From the UHGV virus genome UHGV-0123923: a stretch of 40,997 nt of DNA. One strand, written 5' to 3'. Positions 28,972 through 37,596 of this stretch are shown piece by piece (position 1 is the stretch's first letter; the number at the start of each line of letters is the position of its first letter). Source of the stretch: a virus. The notes beneath the pieces were generated by a model. The model was not told the origin of the DNA. It did no database searches and saw nothing but the letters and a program-made list of their open reading frames with translations. A program made the position numbers and the translations under genes.

Positions 28972-29384
28972 TGGGCTACTTTGAGGACTTAACAAAAGCG
29001 TTCGATGTTCCGCTGGTAGCCTTCGGAACCGCCAACGGCATCAAGGTCGCGCTTGAAAACATCGACGCGCCGACGTCAACCGATACGCCATATCTGGCAA
29101 GTTACATGTTACTGGCGGATACCGAGCAAGCAGATTTGTTCTTCACGGAACAACGCGCGGGTGTTTATCAGGTCGACATTAACTACGCATCGGTGAAAGG
29201 TAGCGCGCCAATCAATAAAATGGCAGACTTACTTAACACGGCATTCAAAGCAGGTAAGTCATTTTCTCGTAACGACATCTGCGCCGAGGTTCAATCGGTT
29301 AGCCTGGGGCCGCTGATTGTAGAAAACGGATGGGCCAAACGACCATTGTCAATTAACTTTATCGCATTCACCAAGAGGCTGTGA
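28968..29384 (+). CDS. tail completion/terminator protein candidate
   Basis: position immediately upstream of the major tail gene; overlapping starts. Confidence 0.4.
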   Translation: MMGYFEDLTKAFDVPLVAFGTANGIKVALENIDAPTSTDTPYLASYMLLADTEQADLFFTEQRAGVYQVDINYASVKGSAPINKMADLLNTAFKAGKSFSRNDICAEVQSVSLGPLIVENGWAKRPLSINFIAFTKRL

Positions 29385-30553
29385 ATATGGCTACAACTCC
29401 TTTTAAGGGCGCGAATACTGCGCAATTCTATGTGGCAGAAACTACCCCTGGCGTAACACCGACTAACCCGGTCTGGTCGCCATTGCGTAACACAGGTGGC
29501 GTTCCTGCCATTACCCGCGACACGCTGACCTCCAACGAACTGGACGGCAGCCGTGAAACTACGTCAATACGCACCGGTAACAAGCAGGTTAGCGGAGAAT
29601 ACGCTATTGAGCTTAGCTCGAAAAGCCAGGACGACTGGCTGGCGGGAGCTTTAGGCTCTACATGGCAATCCGGTAGTTCTCTGACCGGGCTATCAATTAC
29701 CGTCGCGCCCGCAGGCAAGACCTTTACCCGTGCCGAAGGTAGCTTTATTTCTGACGGCGTTGAAGTGGGCGACCTGATTGCGTTTACCGACTTAACCGGT
29801 GACAACGCAAAACCGTTTATCGTAACTGCAGTAGAGGCGCTGGTAGTGACCGGGGCGGGTATCCAGCATACCCTGACCACAGAGACAGTAACTACCGCCG
29901 CTAAGACAGGGGATAAACTGGAAACGGGAAGCCAGTGCAAGACGTTCTCTATTCTCACCTGGTACAAAGGCCAGTGCGGCGGGACTGACGCGTACACACT
30001 AACCAAAGGCGTGGAAGTTTCTGGTTTTACCATCGAACAGGCTGTTAACGCTATGGTAACTGGCAGCTTCCCGTTCATCGGTCGCAGTCAGGAGATTCTC
30101 ACCACGCAGCCGTCTGGTTCTGATTTCTCCTCTGTTACGTTTGGTGACGAGCCATTCTCCTCGGTCGATGTTTCTGTGTTCGACGGTTCTACGCCGTTGC
30201 GTTGCGACAGCCTGACCATCACCAACGACAACAGCGCGTCCGCACAGTTCGAACTCGGCAACACTAACGTAGCGTTTGTGGAGCGTAGCCGAGCAGCTAA
30301 CACCTTCTCCATCTCCGGTAAGCTGTACGACATGGCGATGATTCAGAAGTTTATCAACGAGCAGCAGGTGGAGATTAACTCTATTCTGGCTGGGGTAAAC
30401 GGGGCTATGTCTTTCAGTTTGAAACGTGCAGAACTTACAGCGGTTACGCCTGAGATTGGCGGGCCTGAGTCAATCACTCAGTCCATTGAAGGCCAGGCTA
30501 CTGGCAACCAGTACCAGTCATCTATTGTTATTCAGCGTATCACCTACGCTTAA
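29381..30553 (+). CDS. major tail protein
   Basis: 390 aa, Thr/Gly/Ser-rich; last gene before the tail chaperone block; strong terminator downstream. Confidence 0.5.
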   Translation: MNMATTPFKGANTAQFYVAETTPGVTPTNPVWSPLRNTGGVPAITRDTLTSNELDGSRETTSIRTGNKQVSGEYAIELSSKSQDDWLAGALGSTWQSGSSLTGLSITVAPAGKTFTRAEGSFISDGVEVGDLIAFTDLTGDNAKPFIVTAVEALVVTGAGIQHTLTTETVTTAAKTGDKLETGSQCKTFSILTWYKGQCGGTDAYTLTKGVEVSGFTIEQAVNAMVTGSFPFIGRSQEILTTQPSGSDFSSVTFGDEPFSSVDVSVFDGSTPLRCDSLTITNDNSASAQFELGNTNVAFVERSRAANTFSISGKLYDMAMIQKFINEQQVEINSILAGVNGAMSFSLKRAELTAVTPEIGGPESITQSIEGQATGNQYQSSIVIQRITYA

Positions 30554-30581: not shown

Positions 30582-31136
30582 TTACAAACCTAATTTTAAA
30601 GCAATGTCTACAACGTTCGATTTAACGTCACCCGGTATGATGTATGTGTCGTAATCTTTTACACCGCTAACATCATACAGATACTCCCTGCTATCGCCGA
30701 TGAACGTATAGCCGTCTCGGTGCAAGCGAACGATTCTTACATCATGACCTGCGGCGACGATAGGGGCTACTTCGCTGGCGAACCCGCCATCCGACACTAC
30801 AAAAACGTCATCGCCGTCGGGCAAGTTTTCAGCAAGATACTTACCGAAATAATCGCTGCCGAGAACCGGTTTAATGAATTGCTCAGATATAGCAATCATG
30901 AACTGACGCCGCGACAAGCCATTAAGGAAGCCTTCTGGCTTTTCTTTCCGCGCCCGGTCGTCGTAGCCGTCGAGAAACTCGTGGTAAGCATCCGGGCCTA
31001 ACGCCGCCAGAGCGATATTGAACATTGGATTCTTGAAACTGGTAGTTCCTTTCGCAAAGCCCATTTCTACCAGCGCCATAGCAAGTGTGTCTTTCCCACA
31101 ACCCGCCGGGCCATTAAGAATAATTACCTTAGCCAT
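30582..31136 (-). CDS. P-loop kinase, dNMP-kinase-like (GKDT Walker A)
   Basis: 184 aa; ILNGPAGCGKDT resembles the T4 gp1-type dNMP kinase P-loop (from memory); start overlaps the upstream stop (TAATG). Confidence 0.55.
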   Translation of the reverse strand: MAKVIILNGPAGCGKDTLAMALVEMGFAKGTTSFKNPMFNIALAALGPDAYHEFLDGYDDRARKEKPEGFLNGLSRRQFMIAISEQFIKPVLGSDYFGKYLAENLPDGDDVFVVSDGGFASEVAPIVAAGHDVRIVRLHRDGYTFIGDSREYLYDVSGVKDYDTYIIPGDVKSNVVDIALKLGL

Positions 31137-31624
31137 TATTTATCGCTCCCGTGTGATTTTAAGTGTGTAGAGTTCCCGTTACAGTCGTATTCAGTAACCG
31201 CGTGGGTGGTTATACCGAGTCCGCGGAAATGCTTTATTACCGCTGGAGAGTCGTCGAATGCGCACAAGATTCTCTCCAGCCCAATAGCACGCAACACCTC
31301 TTCTTTAATTACGATGTCTTTTCTGATGTCGTGTTTGCTGCGCATTAACAGAACGTCGAACTTGACATTGTTTTTACGTAACCACTCACGAGTTTCTTCC
31401 TCGGCGTCGTCGCTTCGCCCGGTAAGGATGATTATGGTAATCCCGGTATGCCACAGCGTGTTGCACAAGTGAATGTTGTCATATATCGGCGCATCATCTT
31501 TGCACGCCATGTTAAAAGGCTTCCACGCCCATGTTTCGTTGTAGTTATCTTTCGGCAGCAGGTGTAAACGATGTGTACCATCCGCCAATGTTCCATCTAA
31601 ATCGAAAATCACAATATCTTTCAT
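31136..31624 (-). CDS. HAD-family phosphatase, polynucleotide-kinase 3'-phosphatase-like
   Basis: 162 aa; catalytic FDLDGTL, then TGR and DIRKDIVIKEE...AFDD motifs in the order I recall for the T4 Pnk phosphatase domain. Confidence 0.55.
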   Translation of the reverse strand: MKDIVIFDLDGTLADGTHRLHLLPKDNYNETWAWKPFNMACKDDAPIYDNIHLCNTLWHTGITIIILTGRSDDAEEETREWLRKNNVKFDVLLMRSKHDIRKDIVIKEEVLRAIGLERILCAFDDSPAVIKHFRGLGITTHAVTEYDCNGNSTHLKSHGSDK

Positions 31625-32751
31625 CCCAGCATCTCCGGTGAAATAGTTAAACGTGCGACCTCGCCATATTCGGCGCTATAAGTAATTACATTTGCACTAC
31701 GGCCTGACATCCATCCGCCGCGAGAGGCATATGCATCTTTAGCCGCTAGGGTGCGGTGTTGCTCAACAATCATGTTACGGCTTTCTACAATCTTCTGATG
31801 GTGCAGGTGGCCTACGTGAGCGTAACTGTAAACGCTCTCGCCGAACGCTTTACGGAACTTGGCAATCATAACCGGTTCGATAGCGTCGAATCGCGCCTTA
31901 TGCCCGTGGTGAAAGAACAACGTAGTTTTGCCGTGTTGGACCATCTTGTAAACATCCGGCGACGTATCGACGAACACACGAGGCTCATTGTCGTACAGCG
32001 TACTGAACATCTCAGCTAACCAAATCATTCCGCTTTCGTCATGGTTCCCTTGCACAATAAGCAAGCGAACATTTTTATGCTTAACCAGCGCCATATCAAT
32101 AACACGGCGGACCATACGAATCATGTAGCGTACAAGTTTCTGATAGCGCGTGTCGGCGTCAAGAACATGACCGCTTGCGGGTGTAACTGCATCCAGACTA
32201 TCGAAGTGAGCGAGGTCGCCCAGCAGATTAATAACTCCTGTTCCTGCATCCGGAGCTTTCTGGAACGCAGCATCGAACCACCGAGAGAACAGGTCTTCTG
32301 CAATCTTCATATCCCAGTCGTCGCCGCTCTCGTCGGCCCAGGCCAGCATACCGAGATGGAAATCAGATACCGTGTAAAGATTGAGTAGCTTGTCGTCACG
32401 TTTGTCCCGTGCAGGTTTAACAGGTGCAACTGGCGTAATCTCTGACTTCATGCCTTCGATTACGGCTTTCATCAACTCGACCTGACGTTCTGCATCGGTG
32501 TCGGTCTTAACCCATTGCAGTTTAGTGTTGCCAAACTCATCAACCAGTGACGACGTTCCTTTAATCTTGTAGCCATCCGGCACAAGGTGACTAACGTCAC
32601 GCCCGTGACCTACGCCTTTCTTTGCCAATTTCGCTTTACGGATACGAATTACGCGGTCTGAGATGCCGTATTTACGGGCGATGTCTACATTCTTCATCCC
32701 GGCGTTCAATTCTTCCTGTAACTGTTCGTCGGTTATTTTCTTCTGGGCCAT
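31621..32751 (-). CDS. calcineurin-like metallophosphoesterase with N-terminal HTH domain
   Basis: start moved to ATG (MAQKKITDEQ) behind GAGGAAG; metallophosphatase motifs DFH, GDLAH, GNHDE, HHGH, GHLHH; HTH-like N-terminus KNVDIARKYGISDRVIRIRKAKL. Confidence 0.6.
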   Translation of the reverse strand: MAQKKITDEQLQEELNAGMKNVDIARKYGISDRVIRIRKAKLAKKGVGHGRDVSHLVPDGYKIKGTSSLVDEFGNTKLQWVKTDTDAERQVELMKAVIEGMKSEITPVAPVKPARDKRDDKLLNLYTVSDFHLGMLAWADESGDDWDMKIAEDLFSRWFDAAFQKAPDAGTGVINLLGDLAHFDSLDAVTPASGHVLDADTRYQKLVRYMIRMVRRVIDMALVKHKNVRLLIVQGNHDESGMIWLAEMFSTLYDNEPRVFVDTSPDVYKMVQHGKTTLFFHHGHKARFDAIEPVMIAKFRKAFGESVYSYAHVGHLHHQKIVESRNMIVEQHRTLAAKDAYASRGGWMSGRSANVITYSAEYGEVARLTISPEMLG

Positions 32752-32789
32752 GCTTACTTCCTCGTGTTTAGGATTTGTCTTATAGTAGC

Positions 32790-32981
32790 CTACTTCTCTT
32801 TCACGTTCGAGTTGCAAGCCCAGATTAAAATAAATACCCACGGCAGCAGAACCCAACCAAGAAACAGATTAGCCATGAATATTGCCAACTTCGCTTTATG
32901 GTTACGGAAGTACGCAACCAGGAAAGGCGCGAAATAAGCGAGCAGCGCAAACAGAATTAAAGAAACCGGTAAACTGGACAT
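32790..32981 (-). CDS. small two-TM membrane protein resembling superinfection immunity (T4 Imm-like) proteins
   Basis: start at second ATG behind AAGGGG; PFLVAYFRNHKAKLAIFMANLFLGWVLLPWVFILIWA matches the pattern I recall for the Imm_superinfect family. Confidence 0.45.
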   Translation of the reverse strand: MSSLPVSLILFALLAYFAPFLVAYFRNHKAKLAIFMANLFLGWVLLPWVFILIWACNSNVKEK

Positions 32982-33011
32982 TTTAAACCCCTTCATTGTT
33001 GGTGTAAGTGA

Positions 33012-33040
33012 ATAGTACCCTATTATATTGGGGTGCGCAA
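33012..33040 (-). promoter_or_regulatory. promoter (TTGCGC-N17-TACTAT) with operator motif, driving the reverse-strand accessory cassette
   Basis: -35 is the reverse complement of 33035..33040, -10 of 33012..33017; AATAG(33011..33015)-TACC-CTATT(33020..33024); near-identical to promoter 13318..13346. Confidence 0.5.
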
Positions 33041-33148
33041 GTAATGTGATAGAATAATTTTGCGCCTAGTGTCGCACACGAAAAGCGGGTGGTTCCCGTC
33101 TGGCGCATTTATCGTTAACCTGTAACCTCTTAACCAAAGGATTAAAGA

Positions 33149-33565
33149 ATGAAACTTTCTGATTTCTATTTCGAAGAGAAAGCGCTGGTAGGCAAGAAGA
33201 TGCCGATTCTGCTACCAAACGGTGAAGACTCCGGTGAGTGGCTTAATGTGGTAAGCCCTGACGCGGATGTCGCCGTTAAAGCAGGGCGTGCTTTCATTAT
33301 CGCGTACCGCCGCGGGCTGGCGCGTTTTGAAGAACTGGAAAAAGCTGCCAAAGAATCCGGCGACTATACTGAATATAACCTGGCGGTTAACGAACTGGCG
33401 GAAGACCTCAACCGACAACTCGCGGCAGAAGTCGTAAACGGCTGGAGCTTTGATGAGCCTTTCTCTAAGGAAGCGTTTAACAAATTGCTTGACCAGTTCA
33501 AAGCATTAGGTACACAGGTAGCTGCGTTCCATAACGCCGAGCGCAAAGCATTACAGGAAAAGTAG
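33149..33565 (+). CDS. tail assembly chaperone (lambda gpG-like)
   Basis: 138 aa acidic protein immediately upstream of the tape measure; AAAGGA RBS. Confidence 0.6.
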   Translation: MKLSDFYFEEKALVGKKMPILLPNGEDSGEWLNVVSPDADVAVKAGRAFIIAYRRGLARFEELEKAAKESGDYTEYNLAVNELAEDLNRQLAAEVVNGWSFDEPFSKEAFNKLLDQFKALGTQVAAFHNAERKALQEK

Positions 33566-33930
33566 ACGCGCTGTACAGGTTCGCCACCTACGAGTTCGTT
33601 GATAAGCATAAAATCAGAGAGTTTGATTCTATAGCTGACGGACACGAACAGGCGCTTATCGCGATGGGTGTAATCGATAAGAAAAAACGTGCAGCGCGAC
33701 GGGGTGGGCCAGAATGCCCGCCCCTTTTTATATCCACCTTTGAGACGTACTGCGACATTAAGTTTACGCGACACGTGCGCGAGGACGCTGTAGTATTGTT
33801 TGCAAGAGAATCCGTTACGTGGCAAGACCTGAAAGCCTATCTCGATGTTACGCAAAAACAGCTTAGCTTGTTCGAGATAGACATTATCATGGGCTTAGAA
33901 GCAATCTTTGAAGGTAGAAATCATGGCTGA
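33535..33930 (+). CDS. -1 frame extension of the tail assembly chaperone (gpT-like, expressed by frameshift)
   Basis: -1 frame is open from 33535 to a TGA at 33928..33930, overlapping the chaperone 3' end and the tape measure start; candidate slip site CAGGAAAAG at 33554..33562. Confidence 0.4.
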   Translation, partial: RRAQSITGKVDALYRFATYEFVDKHKIREFDSIADGHEQALIAMGVIDKKKRAARRGGPECPPLFISTFETYCDIKFTRHVREDAVVLFARESVTWQDLKAYLDVTQKQLSLFEIDIIMGLEAIFEGRNHG

Positions 33931-36196
33931 TACCGCTAGCTTGATCGTACGAGTATCATCGACCGGCGTCGATAAAACCACATCACAACTGAACGGGCTT
34001 ACCAAAGCCGCGGGGGCCGCCGCCGCTGCCGTTGTCAGTCTGGAAACTGCCAAACAGGTGTTCAGTGCGCTGGTGGACTCCCAGCGCAACTTCGATAAGC
34101 TGAACTCCGGCCTCATCACAATGACCGGGAGCGCCGAGAACGCTGCTAAGGCATTCAGCGTCCTGCAACAGTTCGCAAAAGAAACTCCGTATGGCCTCAA
34201 TCAGGCGGTAGAGGGGTTTACCAAGCTCGTGGCGCTAGGTCTTAACCCCAGCAAAGAGGCGTTAATATCCTACGGCAACACCGCCGCAGCTATGGGCAAA
34301 GACCTTAACCAAATGATTGAGGCAGTTGCCGACGCCAGTACATTTGAATTTGAGCGCTTAAAAGAGTTCGGTATCAAGTCTTCCCAACAGGCGGATACAG
34401 TTTCGTTTACGTTCCGTGGCGTAACGACCACGGTTAAAAAGAACTCCGAAGAGATTCAGAAATACCTGCTAAATATCGGTAACACTGATTTCGCCGGAGC
34501 GATGGAGACGCGCTCGAAGACCTTAGATGGTCAGTTATCTAGCCTGGCGGACTCCTTCGATGGTCTTGTTCTTGCGGTAGCGCAATCCGGTTTTGGCGAC
34601 GCGGTAGGCGAACAAGCGGCAACAGCGGAAGATGCTATCACCGCACTCACCGACGCCATCGCGTCCAATGAGATCTCCGCCACGCTCCAGGATTGGGTGA
34701 CACTGTTCAATGAGTCGTTCAAGTTTATTTCTGATGCCCTGAATGACCTGGCATTCGATACCGAGGACAAATCCGTTGATATGTCCGACTCGCTGGGGGA
34801 TATACCGGATGCCATCCGTGAGTGGTTGCCGGATATCCAGCAGACATTCCACGAGGTTATTGCGTGGTTCCAGCGCATTGACGACTACGCGGTAGCGTTA
34901 GGCCAGACCCTTGCTGATGTGTTTGACCCGAGCAAAACGGCAGCGCTCACATTTAAAAACCTGACCGCAGAGGCTGACGCCGCATACGCCGCCAGCATAA
35001 AACGTGCAGAGGCCGAATCCCAGGCCATTACCGACAGGTCTAAGCAGCGTAAGAAAGAAATTGAGGAACAGCGCAAGCAGTACGACGAGCGTAAGAAGCA
35101 AGAAATTGACTTAGCCAGCCTTGTTAATAAAAAGGGCGGAACTGGTGGGGTGGGGACAACCGACGATAAAGCAGCAAAAGCCTCCGCCAAGAAAGCAGAG
35201 CAATTGCGGAATCAGGCGCAAGATTACCTCGACACTTTGGCCCGTCAGAACAACGACGAGTTAAAGGCTATCGACGCGCAGGAACAGCAGAAACTGGCTA
35301 AGGCAAAAGAGTTCTACAGCCAGGGCGCGTTGTCCCTGAAAGAATATGAACAAGCTAAAACAGCTATCGTCCTCGAAGCCGGGCAAAAACGACAAGATGA
35401 ACTGGATAAACGCCGGAAAGAAGCCCAGGAAAAGCAGCAGAAAGGTGACGACTTCATGGCTCAGATTATGGGTCAGAACGCTACTGAGCTTGAGCTTCTC
35501 GACATCCAGGAACAGCAGAAACTGGCGGTAGCGGATAAGTACCGCGAGCAGGGTTTGATTAGCGAGAAGCAGTATCAGGCCGCTCTTAACGCCATCAACG
35601 AGCAATACGCAACCAAACGTGCCGATGCAACGGCAACGGCCTTTGGTAACATGGCCTCAAACATCGGGTCTGCGTTGGGTGAGGCTTCTGGCGCGTACAA
35701 GGCATTCGCTATCGTACAGGCCACTATCGCCACGTACACCGCAGCTATTGAGGCGTACAAGTCAACGGCAGCTATCCCTGTAGTTGGCCCGTTCCTGGCC
35801 CCTGTAGCCGCTGCCGCTGCCGTTGGTGCAGGTATGGCGCAGGTTTCCGCTATCCGGTCCGCGCGTGAACAGGGCGGACAGTTATCCGCAGGGCAGGCTT
35901 CCACCATCGCAGAACGCGGTAAACCAGAAGTTATTATGCCGGCTGGCGCATCTCGTGTTCGCACAGCACAGCAGATGAAAGAAATTATGGGGCAAAACGG
36001 GTCTTCTTCCGGCCCGTCTAATGTTACTATCGTAAACAACACGAGTTCTCAAATCGGCAACGTATCCACTGAGCAAGATGATGAAGGCCGTTTGCGAATC
36101 ATCATCGAGGAGCAGGTGGCTGCCTCTTTGCAGAACAGCAACAGCAAGATTAGCAAGGCCCGCAAAGCCACAAGAAATGCGCCGGGGTTTAAATAA
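33923..36196 (+). CDS. tail tape measure protein
   Basis: ~757 aa, helical and Ala/Gln/Glu/Lys-rich with Gly/Ala-rich hydrophobic segment; start at ATG behind GAAGGT (track start at 33908 is TTG). Confidence 0.85.
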   Translation: MADTASLIVRVSSTGVDKTTSQLNGLTKAAGAAAAAVVSLETAKQVFSALVDSQRNFDKLNSGLITMTGSAENAAKAFSVLQQFAKETPYGLNQAVEGFTKLVALGLNPSKEALISYGNTAAAMGKDLNQMIEAVADASTFEFERLKEFGIKSSQQADTVSFTFRGVTTTVKKNSEEIQKYLLNIGNTDFAGAMETRSKTLDGQLSSLADSFDGLVLAVAQSGFGDAVGEQAATAEDAITALTDAIASNEISATLQDWVTLFNESFKFISDALNDLAFDTEDKSVDMSDSLGDIPDAIREWLPDIQQTFHEVIAWFQRIDDYAVALGQTLADVFDPSKTAALTFKNLTAEADAAYAASIKRAEAESQAITDRSKQRKKEIEEQRKQYDERKKQEIDLASLVNKKGGTGGVGTTDDKAAKASAKKAEQLRNQAQDYLDTLARQNNDELKAIDAQEQQKLAKAKEFYSQGALSLKEYEQAKTAIVLEAGQKRQDELDKRRKEAQEKQQKGDDFMAQIMGQNATELELLDIQEQQKLAVADKYREQGLISEKQYQAALNAINEQYATKRADATATAFGNMASNIGSALGEASGAYKAFAIVQATIATYTAAIEAYKSTAAIPVVGPFLAPVAAAAAVGAGMAQVSAIRSAREQGGQLSAGQASTIAERGKPEVIMPAGASRVRTAQQMKEIMGQNGSSSGPSNVTIVNNTSSQIGNVSTEQDDEGRLRIIIEEQVAASLQNSNSKISKARKATRNAPGFK

Positions 36197-37596
36197 TGAG
36201 CGACTTATATTTCCCACGTAGCCTTAAGCCAATTGTATCGAAAGGCTACTCAATGACCAGACGTAACAACGTCTGGAGTGTAGATTTAGCCGGTGGCGGG
36301 GTGCGTCAGGGCCGTGACACGTATTACGACGTGTTCCCTGTTAGCGTAACCCTGATTACATCCGCAATGGGGCGACAGGCGTTTCTGTCGTTCCTCGAAA
36401 AAGTAGACGGCGGTGCGTCAAGTTTCTGGATGGCGCACGACTTCGGCATGGGCATCGAAGATTATCAGGTAACCATTACGTCCACTATCGCCGAGTCCAC
36501 CGAAGACGGGATTAACTGGACAATCACCTTCACGGCAACCGCCGAGAAATCGCCGTTCCAGGACCTTGAGAACCAGTGCCTGATTAACAATCTGCCAGAT
36601 TTGTACGGCTGTTACGGGGATTGTCTGGGTAGTTTCCTGAAAATATACGCGAACTATGAGACGACATTCCCTCGCATCTGGAGCGACGAAGGTCCTGCCG
36701 GATATCCGCCGATTAACATGCTGGCATCTACGCTTGATAGCCGCATTGTTTATGAGGGACCACAGGTTTATTACATCAACCGCAATGGTAATCTTGTACA
36801 GTCCGCCGCCAATGAATGGCCTCTTACGTTTATTGACGGGGTTGCCGCCGGGCGCGTGCCACCAGAGGTATCAGTAACTAACAGATTCCTATATTCAAGC
36901 AATTTCTCTTCGTCAAACTGGAACAAAGGTTTGGTTAGTGTATCAGTATCTGAAACAGGTGTTTTAACAGCCGCGGGCACGTACGACGTAACTGCTACCG
37001 CCACAAGCGGTAACCACCTAATAAACCAGACTGTAGATGTTAGCGTCGGTGTTGGCGACAAGGTGACTTTTAGTTTCTTCGCAAAAGCAAACGGATACAA
37101 TTTCATACGGATGTACGTGCGAGAACTTCCTACAGCATTAGGCTCAGCAGTTGTAGATTTGCGGGATGGTAGCATTTATTCCGGCCCAGGCGGTACAGAT
37201 GTAACCGACGTAGGCGGAGGGTGGTTCCGAATATCGGAGACGGTCAACGCGACAGAAGATAAAACAATGAGCATACGGATGGACGCATGGATATATTCAG
37301 ACGGAGTTACCGGGACATTTACGGGGGATGGCGTTTCAGGGATTAAATTATCCGCGGCTACTGTAGAGGTAAACCAAAATACAACATCACCAATAATTAC
37401 GGCGGCGTCTCCTGTAACACGCCCCGCGGCATCGGCAAAAGTAGTAATGAACGGCGCAACAAGCATCGGCATTACCTACTCCGACGGCTCTGTGGTAGAC
37501 GTTCAGGCTGTTGACGGTTACGCCACCATCCCACAGGCGGATTCTGCGTGGGGTAGTAAATACGTCACCCGTATTGATTTTAATGTGGACGGTTAA
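36196..37596 (+). CDS. distal tail protein candidate with large C-terminal extension
   Basis: 466 aa directly after the tape measure (ATGA overlap); Thr/Ser/Gly/Val-rich C-terminal region suggests beta-sandwich or carbohydrate-binding modules. Confidence 0.45.
   Translation: MSDLYFPRSLKPIVSKGYSMTRRNNVWSVDLAGGGVRQGRDTYYDVFPVSVTLITSAMGRQAFLSFLEKVDGGASSFWMAHDFGMGIEDYQVTITSTIAESTEDGINWTITFTATAEKSPFQDLENQCLINNLPDLYGCYGDCLGSFLKIYANYETTFPRIWSDEGPAGYPPINMLASTLDSRIVYEGPQVYYINRNGNLVQSAANEWPLTFIDGVAAGRVPPEVSVTNRFLYSSNFSSSNWNKGLVSVSVSETGVLTAAGTYDVTATATSGNHLINQTVDVSVGVGDKVTFSFFAKANGYNFIRMYVRELPTALGSAVVDLRDGSIYSGPGGTDVTDVGGGWFRISETVNATEDKTMSIRMDAWIYSDGVTGTFTGDGVSGIKLSAATVEVNQNTTSPIITAASPVTRPAASAKVVMNGATSIGITYSDGSVVDVQAVDGYATIPQADSAWGSKYVTRIDFNVDG

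What the first reader, a model, noticed from the sequence alone, without database searches (positions are those of the whole stretch)
33535..33565. Probable programmed -1 frameshift in the tail assembly chaperone
The -1 frame relative to the chaperone gene is open from 33535 through 33930. This overlaps the last 31 nt of the chaperone ORF and ends 8 nt into the tape measure gene, the conserved G/GT arrangement of long-tailed phages. The only candidate slip site in the overlap is CAG GAA AAG (33554..33562), which is not a canonical X XXY YYZ heptamer, so the exact site and mechanism are uncertain.
Basis: partly seen in the sequence, partly recalled or inferred. Interest (0 to 1): 0.4.

Follow-up and report, generated by a model that had tools for sequence, protein, structure and literature searches.

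The report
Tail chaperone -1 frameshift, already annotated
This is the usual tail-chaperone frameshift of long-tailed phages, in which a few ribosomes slip back one base at the chaperone gene's last two codons to make a longer fusion protein; it is real but already annotated in the near-identical E. coli phage K1G.

Summary
The window is a K1G-like Kagunavirus (Guernseyvirinae). The chaperone ORF "G" is 33149..33565. The -1 frame is open 33535..33930 and ends 8 nt into the tape measure gene.

The -1 ORF is real coding sequence. It matches Pfam Phage_TAC_18 and a PHROG built from fused chaperones. Codon periodicity starts right after the G stop, with no start codon for 33 codons.

Comparison of 84 unique related loci fixes the slip site at the last two sense codons, G_GAA_AAG (33556..33562).
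- All 84 end NNA AAG followed directly by TAG or TAA.
- The penultimate codon varies (GAA, GCA, GTA, TCA, AAA, GGA) but always ends in A.
- Two loci leave only 7 nt of open -1 frame before the stop.

The predicted product is a 260-aa GT fusion with junction ...LQEK|VDALY.... This junction is already deposited for K1G (YP_009168804.1).

No conserved downstream RNA structure or upstream Shine-Dalgarno-like element was found. The adjacent stop codon is therefore the best candidate stimulator, which is an inference.

Verdict: supported, ordinary and already known. Nothing has been shown experimentally. In passing I found a covarying terminator-like hairpin inside the T coding region.

The parts
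33149..33565 (+). Gene G: tail assembly chaperone, 138 aa, the product of normal translation, ending ...ALQEK-TAG
   Evidence: ORF list. Pfam Phage_TAC_4 at 27 bits against a cut-off of 21.1; phrog_15027 positions 1-138. 97% nt identity to K1G ORF22A.
33556..33562 (+). Slip site G_GAA_AAG, with core tetramer A_AAG at 33559..33562. tRNA-Lys re-pairs from AAG (33560-62) to AAA (33559-61).
   Evidence: 84 of 84 unique related loci end NNA AAG. The third base of the penultimate codon is A in 84/84 (20% background), and the last codon is AAG in 84/84 (Lys elsewhere in G is 68% AAA). Loci L053 and L055 leave only C_GCA_AAG open in the -1 frame. Relatives carry canonical G_GGA_AAG or A_AAA_AAG at the same place.
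33563..33565 (+). G stop codon TAG directly 3' of the slip site; candidate stimulator ('shifty stop'). Its TA also supplies bases 2-3 of the first new-frame codon, GTA.
   Evidence: A stop directly follows AAG in 84/84 loci: TAG 58, TAA 26, TGA 0. A stimulating role is inferred and not tested.
33568..33573 (+). GCG CTG (T-frame codons Ala-Leu): conserved 3' context of unknown role
   Evidence: GCG in 20/20 and CTG in 19/20 divergent representatives, although other Ala codons nearby vary freely.
33562..33930 (+). T segment read in the -1 frame after the slip (GTA GAC GCG CTG ... TGA), 122 codons. The GT fusion is join(33149..33562,33562..33930), 260 aa.
   Evidence: Translation. Pfam Phage_TAC_18 E=1.2e-18; phrog_15027 positions 134-259. 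Codon-position entropy 0.73/0.63/1.40 in the first 32 codons. The exact K1G fusion sequence is in public databases.
33923..36196 (+). Tape measure protein gene, overlapping the end of T by 8 nt
   Evidence: phrog_1538 E=7e-195; Pfam TMP_3 E=1e-9, 38.9 bits, just below its 41-bit cut-off. K1G annotation.
33701..33724 (+). Terminator-like hairpin plus T tract inside the T coding region (side observation; too far downstream to be a classical frameshift stimulator)
   Evidence: Terminator scan. Fold about -22 kcal/mol. Covariation in the outer stem pairs.

Best explanation
Most ribosomes translating gene G (33149..33565) stop at TAG and release the 138-aa chaperone. A minority slip back one base on the last two sense codons, G_GAA_AAG (33556..33562). 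The single tRNA-Lys(UUU) of enterobacteria, which pairs better with AAA than with AAG, re-pairs from AAG (33560-62) to AAA (33559-61). The next codon read is then GTA (33562-64), and translation continues in the -1 frame to TGA at 33928-30. The product is a 260-aa GT fusion with junction ...ALQEK|VDALYRF.... By analogy with lambda, G and the G part of GT coat the tape measure protein, and the T part recruits the tail tube protein. The frameshift rate would then set a fixed G:GT ratio. The site is a hexamer-type motif (NNA_AAG), not a strict X_XXY_YYZ heptamer, and I found no conserved RNA structure to stimulate it. The most likely helper is the stop codon directly 3' of AAG. While peptidyl-tRNA-Lys sits in the P site and the A site waits for a release factor, the tRNA has time to slip. 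What is shown here: the ORF anatomy, that T is coding, the position of the slip site, and identity with deposited fusion proteins. What is inferred: that slippage happens at all, its rate, the role of the stop codon, and the protein functions.
For: Anatomy. Both halves are chaperone families, and a PHROG built from fused proteins covers both. Protein conservation runs straight through the junction: K138, V139, A141 and L142 are invariant across sequences 45-55% identical. T-frame codon periodicity begins immediately after the G stop. There is no ATG/GTG/TTG in the window for 33 codons after the junction. Site: 84/84 unique loci end NNA AAG TAR, with the penultimate codon varying among six codons that all end in A. 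In L053 and L055 the -1 frame is open for only 7 nt before the stop. Relatives have canonical G_GGA_AAG or A_AAA_AAG at the same place. The predicted K1G fusion is exactly YP_009168804.1/ADA82267.1, and the AH01 fusion is exactly QZA71161.1; joined CDS are annotated in K1G, fTaEco01 and AH01. Literature: A_AAG is by far the most shift-prone tetramer in E. coli, at 5.6% with a pseudoknot and about 0.15% without one (PMC4066793). NNA_AAG hexamers are used at B. subtilis cdd and IS1222, and G_GA is an accepted imperfect X_XX (PMC5009743). No stimulatory structure: alifold energy about 0, mean z about 0; window fold z=-0.3; no Rfam match. More distant G homologues have slip motifs at the homologous spot: T_TTT_TTC, C_CGA_AAG, G_GTA_AAG.
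Against: No experimental evidence for the fusion exists for any member of this phage subfamily, as far as the searched literature shows. Many GenBank records annotate two separate ORFs, and one genome announcement states there is 'no canonical slippery sequence' (PMC6776780). Without a stimulator, A_AAG shifts only about 0.15% in reporter assays, so a useful rate depends on the untested stop-codon effect or on an unseen stimulator. The stop may sit next to the slip site simply to avoid dual coding, not to stimulate slipping; distant relatives with NNA_AAG sites do not have an adjacent stop. An ATG at 33664 is present in 15 of 20 representatives and could give a separate short T product in addition.
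Confidence: 0.8

Rival explanations
1. Same -1 slip and same product, but the stop codon plays no part. tRNA-Lys slips while in the A site or during translocation on the hexamer GAA_AAG, as at IS1222 or cdd CGA_AAG. The stop follows immediately only because this avoids dual coding of G and T.
For: Hexamer NNA_AAG shifting is documented without adjacent stops (PMC5009743). The penultimate codons seen here include GCA, GTA and TCA; from my own knowledge these are read by extended-wobble tRNAs, the class the review says favours shifting. Distant relatives such as Tlacuache (C_CGA_AAG) and PH669 have no adjacent stop.
Against: Hexamers and tetramers need a stimulator to rise above about 0.15%, and none is conserved here. 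Stop adjacency is invariant in 84/84 loci across about 45% protein identity, with TAG/TAA exchange and no TGA. That looks like selection on the stop itself.
Confidence: 0.3
2. There is no frameshift. T is translated on its own, from ATG 33664 (88 aa) or from a non-standard start just after the G stop (CTG 33571), as many GenBank records annotate.
For: Gene callers and many records list a separate ORF. ATG 33664 is present in 15 of 20 representatives, some with a GAGG about 11 nt upstream. The Pfam Phage_TAC_18 match starts near this Met.
Against: The 33 codons between the G stop and ATG 33664 are the best conserved part of the T frame and show clear codon periodicity. They include the invariant F159, D160, I162, G165 and H166. 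The window has no ATG/GTG/TTG there and only a weak AGG upstream of the ATG. Five of 20 representatives lack that ATG; three of them have no start with a plausible SD before codon 47, and the other two have one only at codon 7 or 31. The codon at 33571 is CTG in 19 of 20 and TTG in 1. Independent initiation does not explain the invariant NNA AAG TAR.
Confidence: 0.08
3. The frame change is made by RNA polymerase slippage on the A run, not by the ribosome.
For: There is a short A run (AAAA at 33558-33561).
Against: Four A's here, and only three in the GCA AAG, GTA AAG and TCA AAG relatives. From general knowledge, this is far shorter than the runs known to give transcriptional slippage. Conservation follows codon phase and the AAG/stop arrangement, not run length.
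Confidence: 0.02

Closest known systems
Escherichia phage K1G ORF22A/ORF22B (NC_027993 / GU196277; YP_009168805.1 and YP_009168804.1), plus the same joined CDS in fTaEco01 and Pantoea phage AH01
   Same: Same genus and 97% nt identity across the locus. Same G length, same slip region and same fusion junction QEK|VDAL. The window's predicted GT differs from the K1G protein by one residue.
   Different: Nothing of substance. The deposited annotation gives no mechanism, and many sister genomes annotate two separate ORFs instead.
Phage lambda G/GT programmed -1 frameshift, and the conserved tail-chaperone frameshift of long-tailed phages (Levin 1993 and Xu, Hendrix and Duda 2004, as cited in PMC5009743)
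   Same: Two overlapping ORFs just upstream of the tape measure gene. The second is in the -1 frame with no start of its own. The slip uses tRNA-Lys on ...A_AAG, and a minority fusion product is expected.
   Different: Lambda uses the perfect heptamer G_GGA_AAG. Here it is G_GAA_AAG or NNA_AAG at the very last sense codons, with the stop directly adjacent. The tail tube gene is separated from G by four opposite-strand genes. Pfam places G in Phage_TAC_4 and T in Phage_TAC_18; I did not compare them with lambda gpG directly.
Hexamer/tetramer -1 frameshift sites on A_AAG: B. subtilis cdd (A_CGA_AAG), IS1222 (G_CGA_AAG), IS3 (A_AAG plus pseudoknot)
   Same: Single-tRNA slippage of tRNA-Lys from AAG to AAA with a non-repairing 5' codon ending in A (PMC5009743; PMC4066793).
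   Different: The IS elements rely on a downstream pseudoknot or other structure. No conserved structure is found here. Here the stop codon is directly adjacent.
Burkholderia phage KL1 gp18/gp19 (PMC3483164)
   Same: Predicted tail-chaperone -1 frameshift whose slip site lies immediately upstream of the stop codon of the short product, with similar sizes of 142 and 264 aa.
   Different: KL1 has a canonical GGGAAAC heptamer and a TGA stop, and another gene lies between GT and the tape measure gene.
'Shifty stop' recoding (Weiss et al. 1987; prfB +1 frameshift)
   Same: A slowly decoded stop codon in the A site gives the P-site tRNA time to re-pair in another frame (cited in PMC5009743 and PMC6815119).
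   Different: prfB shifts +1 and uses an upstream Shine-Dalgarno-like element. Here the direction is -1, no such element is conserved, and the stop's role is only inferred.

Membership tests
G/GT-type tail assembly chaperone frameshift of long-tailed phages (Xu, Hendrix and Duda 2004) | Two overlapping ORFs immediately upstream of the tape measure gene, the second in the -1 frame | tested here: met
   G 33149..33565; -1 ORF 33535..33930; tape measure ATG at 33923.
G/GT-type tail assembly chaperone frameshift of long-tailed phages (Xu, Hendrix and Duda 2004) | The pair lies downstream of the major tail (tube) gene | tested here: inconclusive
   The tube gene (Pfam Phage_tube_2) is at 29381..30553, but four minus-strand genes (30582..32996) lie between it and G. 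The order is kept but adjacency is not. K1G has the same layout.
G/GT-type tail assembly chaperone frameshift of long-tailed phages (Xu, Hendrix and Duda 2004) | The downstream ORF lacks its own start and ribosome binding site, yet is conserved as protein from the overlap onward | tested here: met
   No ATG/GTG/TTG for 33 codons after the junction in the window. These are the best conserved T codons, with 3-nt periodicity.
G/GT-type tail assembly chaperone frameshift of long-tailed phages (Xu, Hendrix and Duda 2004) | A conserved slippery sequence lies in the overlap | tested here: met
   NNA_AAG in 84/84 unique loci, and canonical G_GGA_AAG or A_AAA_AAG in some. The window's own motif, G_GAA_AAG, is not a perfect X_XXY_YYZ.
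G/GT-type tail assembly chaperone frameshift of long-tailed phages (Xu, Hendrix and Duda 2004) | G and GT are both produced, in a fixed ratio, and both are needed for tail assembly | not testable with these tools
   No experimental data found for this subfamily.
Pfam tail assembly chaperone families (Phage_TAC_4 for G; Phage_TAC_18 for T) | Score above the curated gathering threshold | tested here: met
   G: 27 bits against 21.1. T: 67.5 bits against 27.
Stop-codon-stimulated ('shifty stop') P-site slippage | A stop codon directly 3' of the shift codon, conserved across relatives | tested here: met
   84/84 loci: TAG 58, TAA 26.
Stop-codon-stimulated ('shifty stop') P-site slippage | Shift efficiency depends on the stop codon and on release factor activity | not testable with these tools
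   Needs reporter assays with stop-to-sense mutants and RF1 titration.
Structure-stimulated -1 frameshift (dnaX or IS3/IS911 type) | A conserved stem-loop or pseudoknot 5-9 nt downstream, or a Shine-Dalgarno-like element about 10 nt upstream | tested here: not met
   Alifold consensus energy about 0 for all windows from -60 to +160. Mean z of downstream folds 0.04 to 0.36. Window fold z=-0.3. No Rfam frameshift element. By eye, no shared GGAGG-like motif upstream in the sequences.

The most novel reading that the evidence does not exclude
Across the whole subfamily the GT fusion may be made by structure-independent, stop-codon-dependent P-site slippage of tRNA-Lys on NNA_AAG_UAR. This would be tuned by a frozen 3' context (GCGCUG) and by avoidance of UGA. 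The covarying terminator-like hairpin inside T (33701..33724) may add a second, transcriptional layer that sets the G : GT : tape measure ratio.
Probability: 0.3. Interest if true: 0.4.

Novelty: already known. Interest (0 to 1): 0.2.

Why it matters
For annotation, it settles an inconsistency. Many Guernseyvirinae genomes list T as a separate 'hypothetical protein', sometimes from a CTG or internal ATG start, and one genome paper says no slippery sequence exists. The comparison here supports a single joined CDS, join(33149..33562,33562..33930), for the whole subfamily. For recoding biology, it offers a natural, well-sampled case of a minimal A_AAG site whose only conserved neighbour is a stop codon. 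A simple reporter assay could test it. It does not open a new kind of mechanism.

Tried and rejected
Downstream stimulatory RNA structure: RNAalifold on 20 representatives (<85% identical) over six windows from -60 to +160 gave only a 3-bp consensus with energy about 0. Shuffled-sequence z-scores of the 40- and 60-nt downstream folds averaged 0.04 and 0.36. The window's own 78 nt gave z=-0.3. Rejected.

Known RNA families: a permissive Rfam scan of 33300..33900 returned only chance-level hits with E>2.

Upstream Shine-Dalgarno-like stimulator: the AGGA inside CAGGAAAAG is too close to the slip codon and is absent from the GCA, GTA and TCA variants. No shared motif lies 8-14 nt upstream (read by eye).

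A phage-encoded tRNA that might alter Lys decoding: no tRNA genes in the window.

Solved structures: no meaningful PDB sequence match for GT.

Literature: the Anany 2015 'Jerseyvirinae' paper (PMID 25663216), cited in the Snoke GenBank note, and Licznar 2003 (PMC212731) are not held. I therefore used the Atkins 2016 review's summary of Licznar.

One apparent exception among 85 loci (L028, phage SS3e) came from my motif anchor landing on a different ORF in an old, frame-disrupted sequence. I excluded it.

Not run, because the question was settled without them: structure prediction, the search for homologous proteins, and the metagenome scan.

Full report
**What the window is**

The region 33000..34400 is 97.4% identical to Escherichia phage K1G (Kagunavirus, Guernseyvirinae). 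It matches 117 phage records at 80% identity or more. In K1G the homologous genes are annotated as ORF22A (tail assembly chaperone), ORF22B (a two-piece joined CDS, also a tail assembly chaperone) and ORF23 (tape measure protein).

**Check of the observation**

- The chaperone ORF (G) runs 33149..33565 and encodes 138 aa ending ...ALQEK, with TAG at 33563-65.
- The -1 frame has TAA at 33532-34 and is then open from 33535 to TGA at 33928-30. The overlap with G is 31 nt.
- The tape measure ATG is at 33923, so the -1 ORF ends 8 nt into that gene.
- Within the overlap, the only shift-prone motif is CAG GAA AAG (33554..33562). It is not a perfect X_XXY_YYZ heptamer.

**Is the -1 ORF real coding sequence?**

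Yes.
- Its translation matches Pfam Phage_TAC_18 (E=1.2e-18, 67.5 bits against a cut-off of 27).
- It also matches positions 134-259 of phrog_15027, a 259-position profile of fused tail assembly chaperones. G matches positions 1-138 of the same profile (E=6.5e-71 each). G itself passes Pfam Phage_TAC_4.
- I aligned predicted fusions from nine phages that are 45-55% identical to the window. Conservation runs straight through the junction: K138, V139, A141 and L142 are invariant, as are F159, D160, I162, G165 and H166 further on.
- In 20 representatives (<85% nt identity), the first 32 T-frame codons after the junction have codon-position entropies of 0.73/0.63/1.40. This is clear coding periodicity and the best conserved stretch of the locus.
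- The T frame has no stop in that stretch in 20/20 representatives. The other two frames average 1.2 and 2.6 stops.

**Is T translated on its own?**

Probably not.
- In the window, the first ATG/GTG/TTG in the T frame is ATG 33664, at codon 34 after the junction. Only a weak AGG lies upstream of it.
- That ATG is missing in 5 of 20 representatives. Three of these (L009, L088, L008) have no start with a plausible SD before codon 47; L008 has only a weak GTG at codon 7, and L086 has an ATG at codon 31.
- Starting there would drop the best conserved residues.
- Some records annotate T from the codon at 33571. That codon is CTG in 19 of 20 representatives and TTG in one.

**Where is the slip site?**

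I collected 80 loci from IMG/VR and 11 GenBank loci, which gave 84 unique G-T sequences after removing one artefact. All 84 end NNA AAG followed directly by a stop.
- The penultimate codon is GAA, GCA, GTA, TCA, AAA or GGA. Its third base is A in 84/84, against 20% A at third positions elsewhere in G.
- The last codon is AAG in 84/84. Lys codons elsewhere in G are 68% AAA.
- The stop is TAG in 58 loci, TAA in 26 and TGA in none.
- The open part of the -1 frame before the stop is as short as 19 nt in many loci. In L053 and L055 it is only 7 nt (C_GCA_AAG), so any -1 shift there must occur on the last two codons.
- One Kagunavirus-like locus has the lambda-type G_GGA_AAG at this position, and L080 has the dnaX-type A_AAA_AAG.

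The window's site is therefore G_GAA_AAG (33556..33562), with core A_AAG at 33559..33562.

**Product**

After AAG is read, tRNA-Lys re-pairs to AAA (33559-61), and the next codon is GTA (33562-64). The fusion is join(33149..33562,33562..33930), 260 aa, with junction ...ALQEK|VDALYRF....

The same construct built from the K1G sequence is exactly ADA82267.1/YP_009168804.1, and is also deposited for fKuEco01. The one built from Pantoea phage AH01 is exactly QZA71161.1. An alternative junction (QGKV) is not in the databases.

The event and its product are therefore already in public annotation. Other records list two separate ORFs, and the Shashou genome note says there is 'no canonical slippery sequence' (PMC6776780).

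**Mechanism**

A_AAG is by far the most shift-prone tetramer in E. coli. It gives 5.6% with the IS3 pseudoknot but only about 0.15% without a stimulator (PMC4066793). Hexamer sites of the form NNA_AAG are known at B. subtilis cdd and IS1222, and G_GA is an accepted imperfect X_XX. E. coli has a single tRNA-Lys for both AAA and AAG (PMC5009743).

I looked for stimulators and found none.
- Consensus folding of 20 representatives over windows from -60 to +160 gave essentially nothing.
- Downstream folds are no more stable than shuffled sequence.
- There is no Rfam match.
- No shared Shine-Dalgarno-like element lies upstream.

The only conserved neighbours are the stop codon directly 3' of the site and the next-but-one codons GCG CTG, whose synonymous sites are frozen (20/20 and 19/20).

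My best inference is a 'shifty stop'. With peptidyl-tRNA-Lys in the P site and UAG or UAA in the A site, slow termination gives time for the -1 re-pairing, after which GUA is decoded. This step is inferred, not shown. The main rival is an ordinary hexamer slip, with the stop placed there only to avoid dual coding.

**Wider context**

Distant G homologues (27-32% identity) from other phage groups keep a -1 T ORF with a homologous N-terminal motif (..L..[YW]...EF[KV]L). Each has a slip motif a few codons upstream of it:
- T_TTT_TTC in Pseudomonas phage AAT-1 and Vibrio phage vB_VhaS-tm;
- C_CGA_AAG in Serratia phage Tlacuache;
- G_GTA_AAG and G_CAA_AAG in Vibrio phage PH669.

In none of these does the stop follow the slip site directly, so stop adjacency is a trait of the Guernseyvirinae. 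Burkholderia phage KL1 is a published precedent for a slip site (GGGAAAC) immediately before the stop of the short product (PMC3483164).

**Side observation**

Inside the T coding region, 136 nt past the slip site, lies a strong hairpin: GGGGTGGGC-CAGAAT-GCCCGCCCC, followed by TTTTTATAT (33701..33724).
- Its core is encoded by the conserved G-P-x-C-P motif.
- The outer stem pairs covary among relatives: 78% of cells are paired against 68±1.8% in shuffles; the covariation score is 0.26 against 0.13; 0 of 500 shuffles reach it; and slid controls are lower.
- Jerseyviruses lack the outer stem and the T tract.
- It looks like a partial intrinsic terminator, and it is too far downstream to be a classical frameshift stimulator. 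I did not pursue it.

**Verdict**

The site is now pinned to G_GAA_AAG-TAG. The feature is the ordinary tail-chaperone frameshift and is already annotated in the nearest relative, so novelty is 'already known' and interest is low. The only mildly unusual aspects are the minimal, structure-free site next to an invariant UAG/UAA stop, and the embedded hairpin.

Noticed in passing
window 33701..33724 (+), tail to about 33733: Terminator-like hairpin (9 bp, 8 of them G-C) followed by TTTTTATAT, inside the T coding region. The outer stem pairs covary across relatives (0 of 500 shuffles reach the observed covariation). Jerseyviruses lack the outer stem and the T tract. It may be an internal attenuator or a transcript 3' end that favours G-only mRNA.
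   Followed up: partly
window 33568..33573: The T-frame codons GCG CTG just after the junction are frozen at synonymous sites (20/20 and 19/20 divergent representatives), while a nearby Ala codon uses all four synonyms. No pairing partner or motif was found.
   Followed up: partly
window 33563..33565 and homologous positions in L001-L091: The stop after A_AAG is TAG (58) or TAA (26) and never TGA (0 of 84 unique loci), although TGA would still encode Val (GTG) in the new frame and is one transition away from TAA.
   Followed up: no
window 30582..32996 (-) and 32997..33148: Four opposite-strand genes separate the tail tube gene (29381..30553) from G. K1G annotates them as ATP-binding protein, polynucleotide kinase, DNA repair exonuclease and superinfection immunity. 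G therefore heads its own rightward unit after a 150-nt gap. The simple scan found only leftward sigma-70-like promoters in that gap.
   Followed up: no
window 36196..37596 (+): The gene after the tape measure gene encodes 466 aa here, but the K1G gene at the same position is only 501 nt (about 166 aa). The N-terminus matches phrog_384, and residues 128-464 match phrog_11600 (unknown function). This suggests a large C-terminal addition to a distal tail protein.
   Followed up: no
L092-L095 (Pseudomonas AAT-1, Serratia Tlacuache, Vibrio vB_VhaS-tm, Vibrio PH669): Distant G homologues also have an unannotated -1 T ORF with slip motifs T_TTT_TTC, C_CGA_AAG or G_GTA_AAG. In AAT-1 and Tlacuache the annotated 'G' ORF seems to run on in the zero frame through low-complexity sequence, and GT is not annotated.
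   Followed up: partly
L002, L004, L005, L007, L010 (GenBank records): Annotation of T is inconsistent. Several records start T 6 nt after the G stop, at a codon that is CTG in most genomes. Others start at the internal ATG (88 aa) or at other downstream starts.
   Followed up: partly
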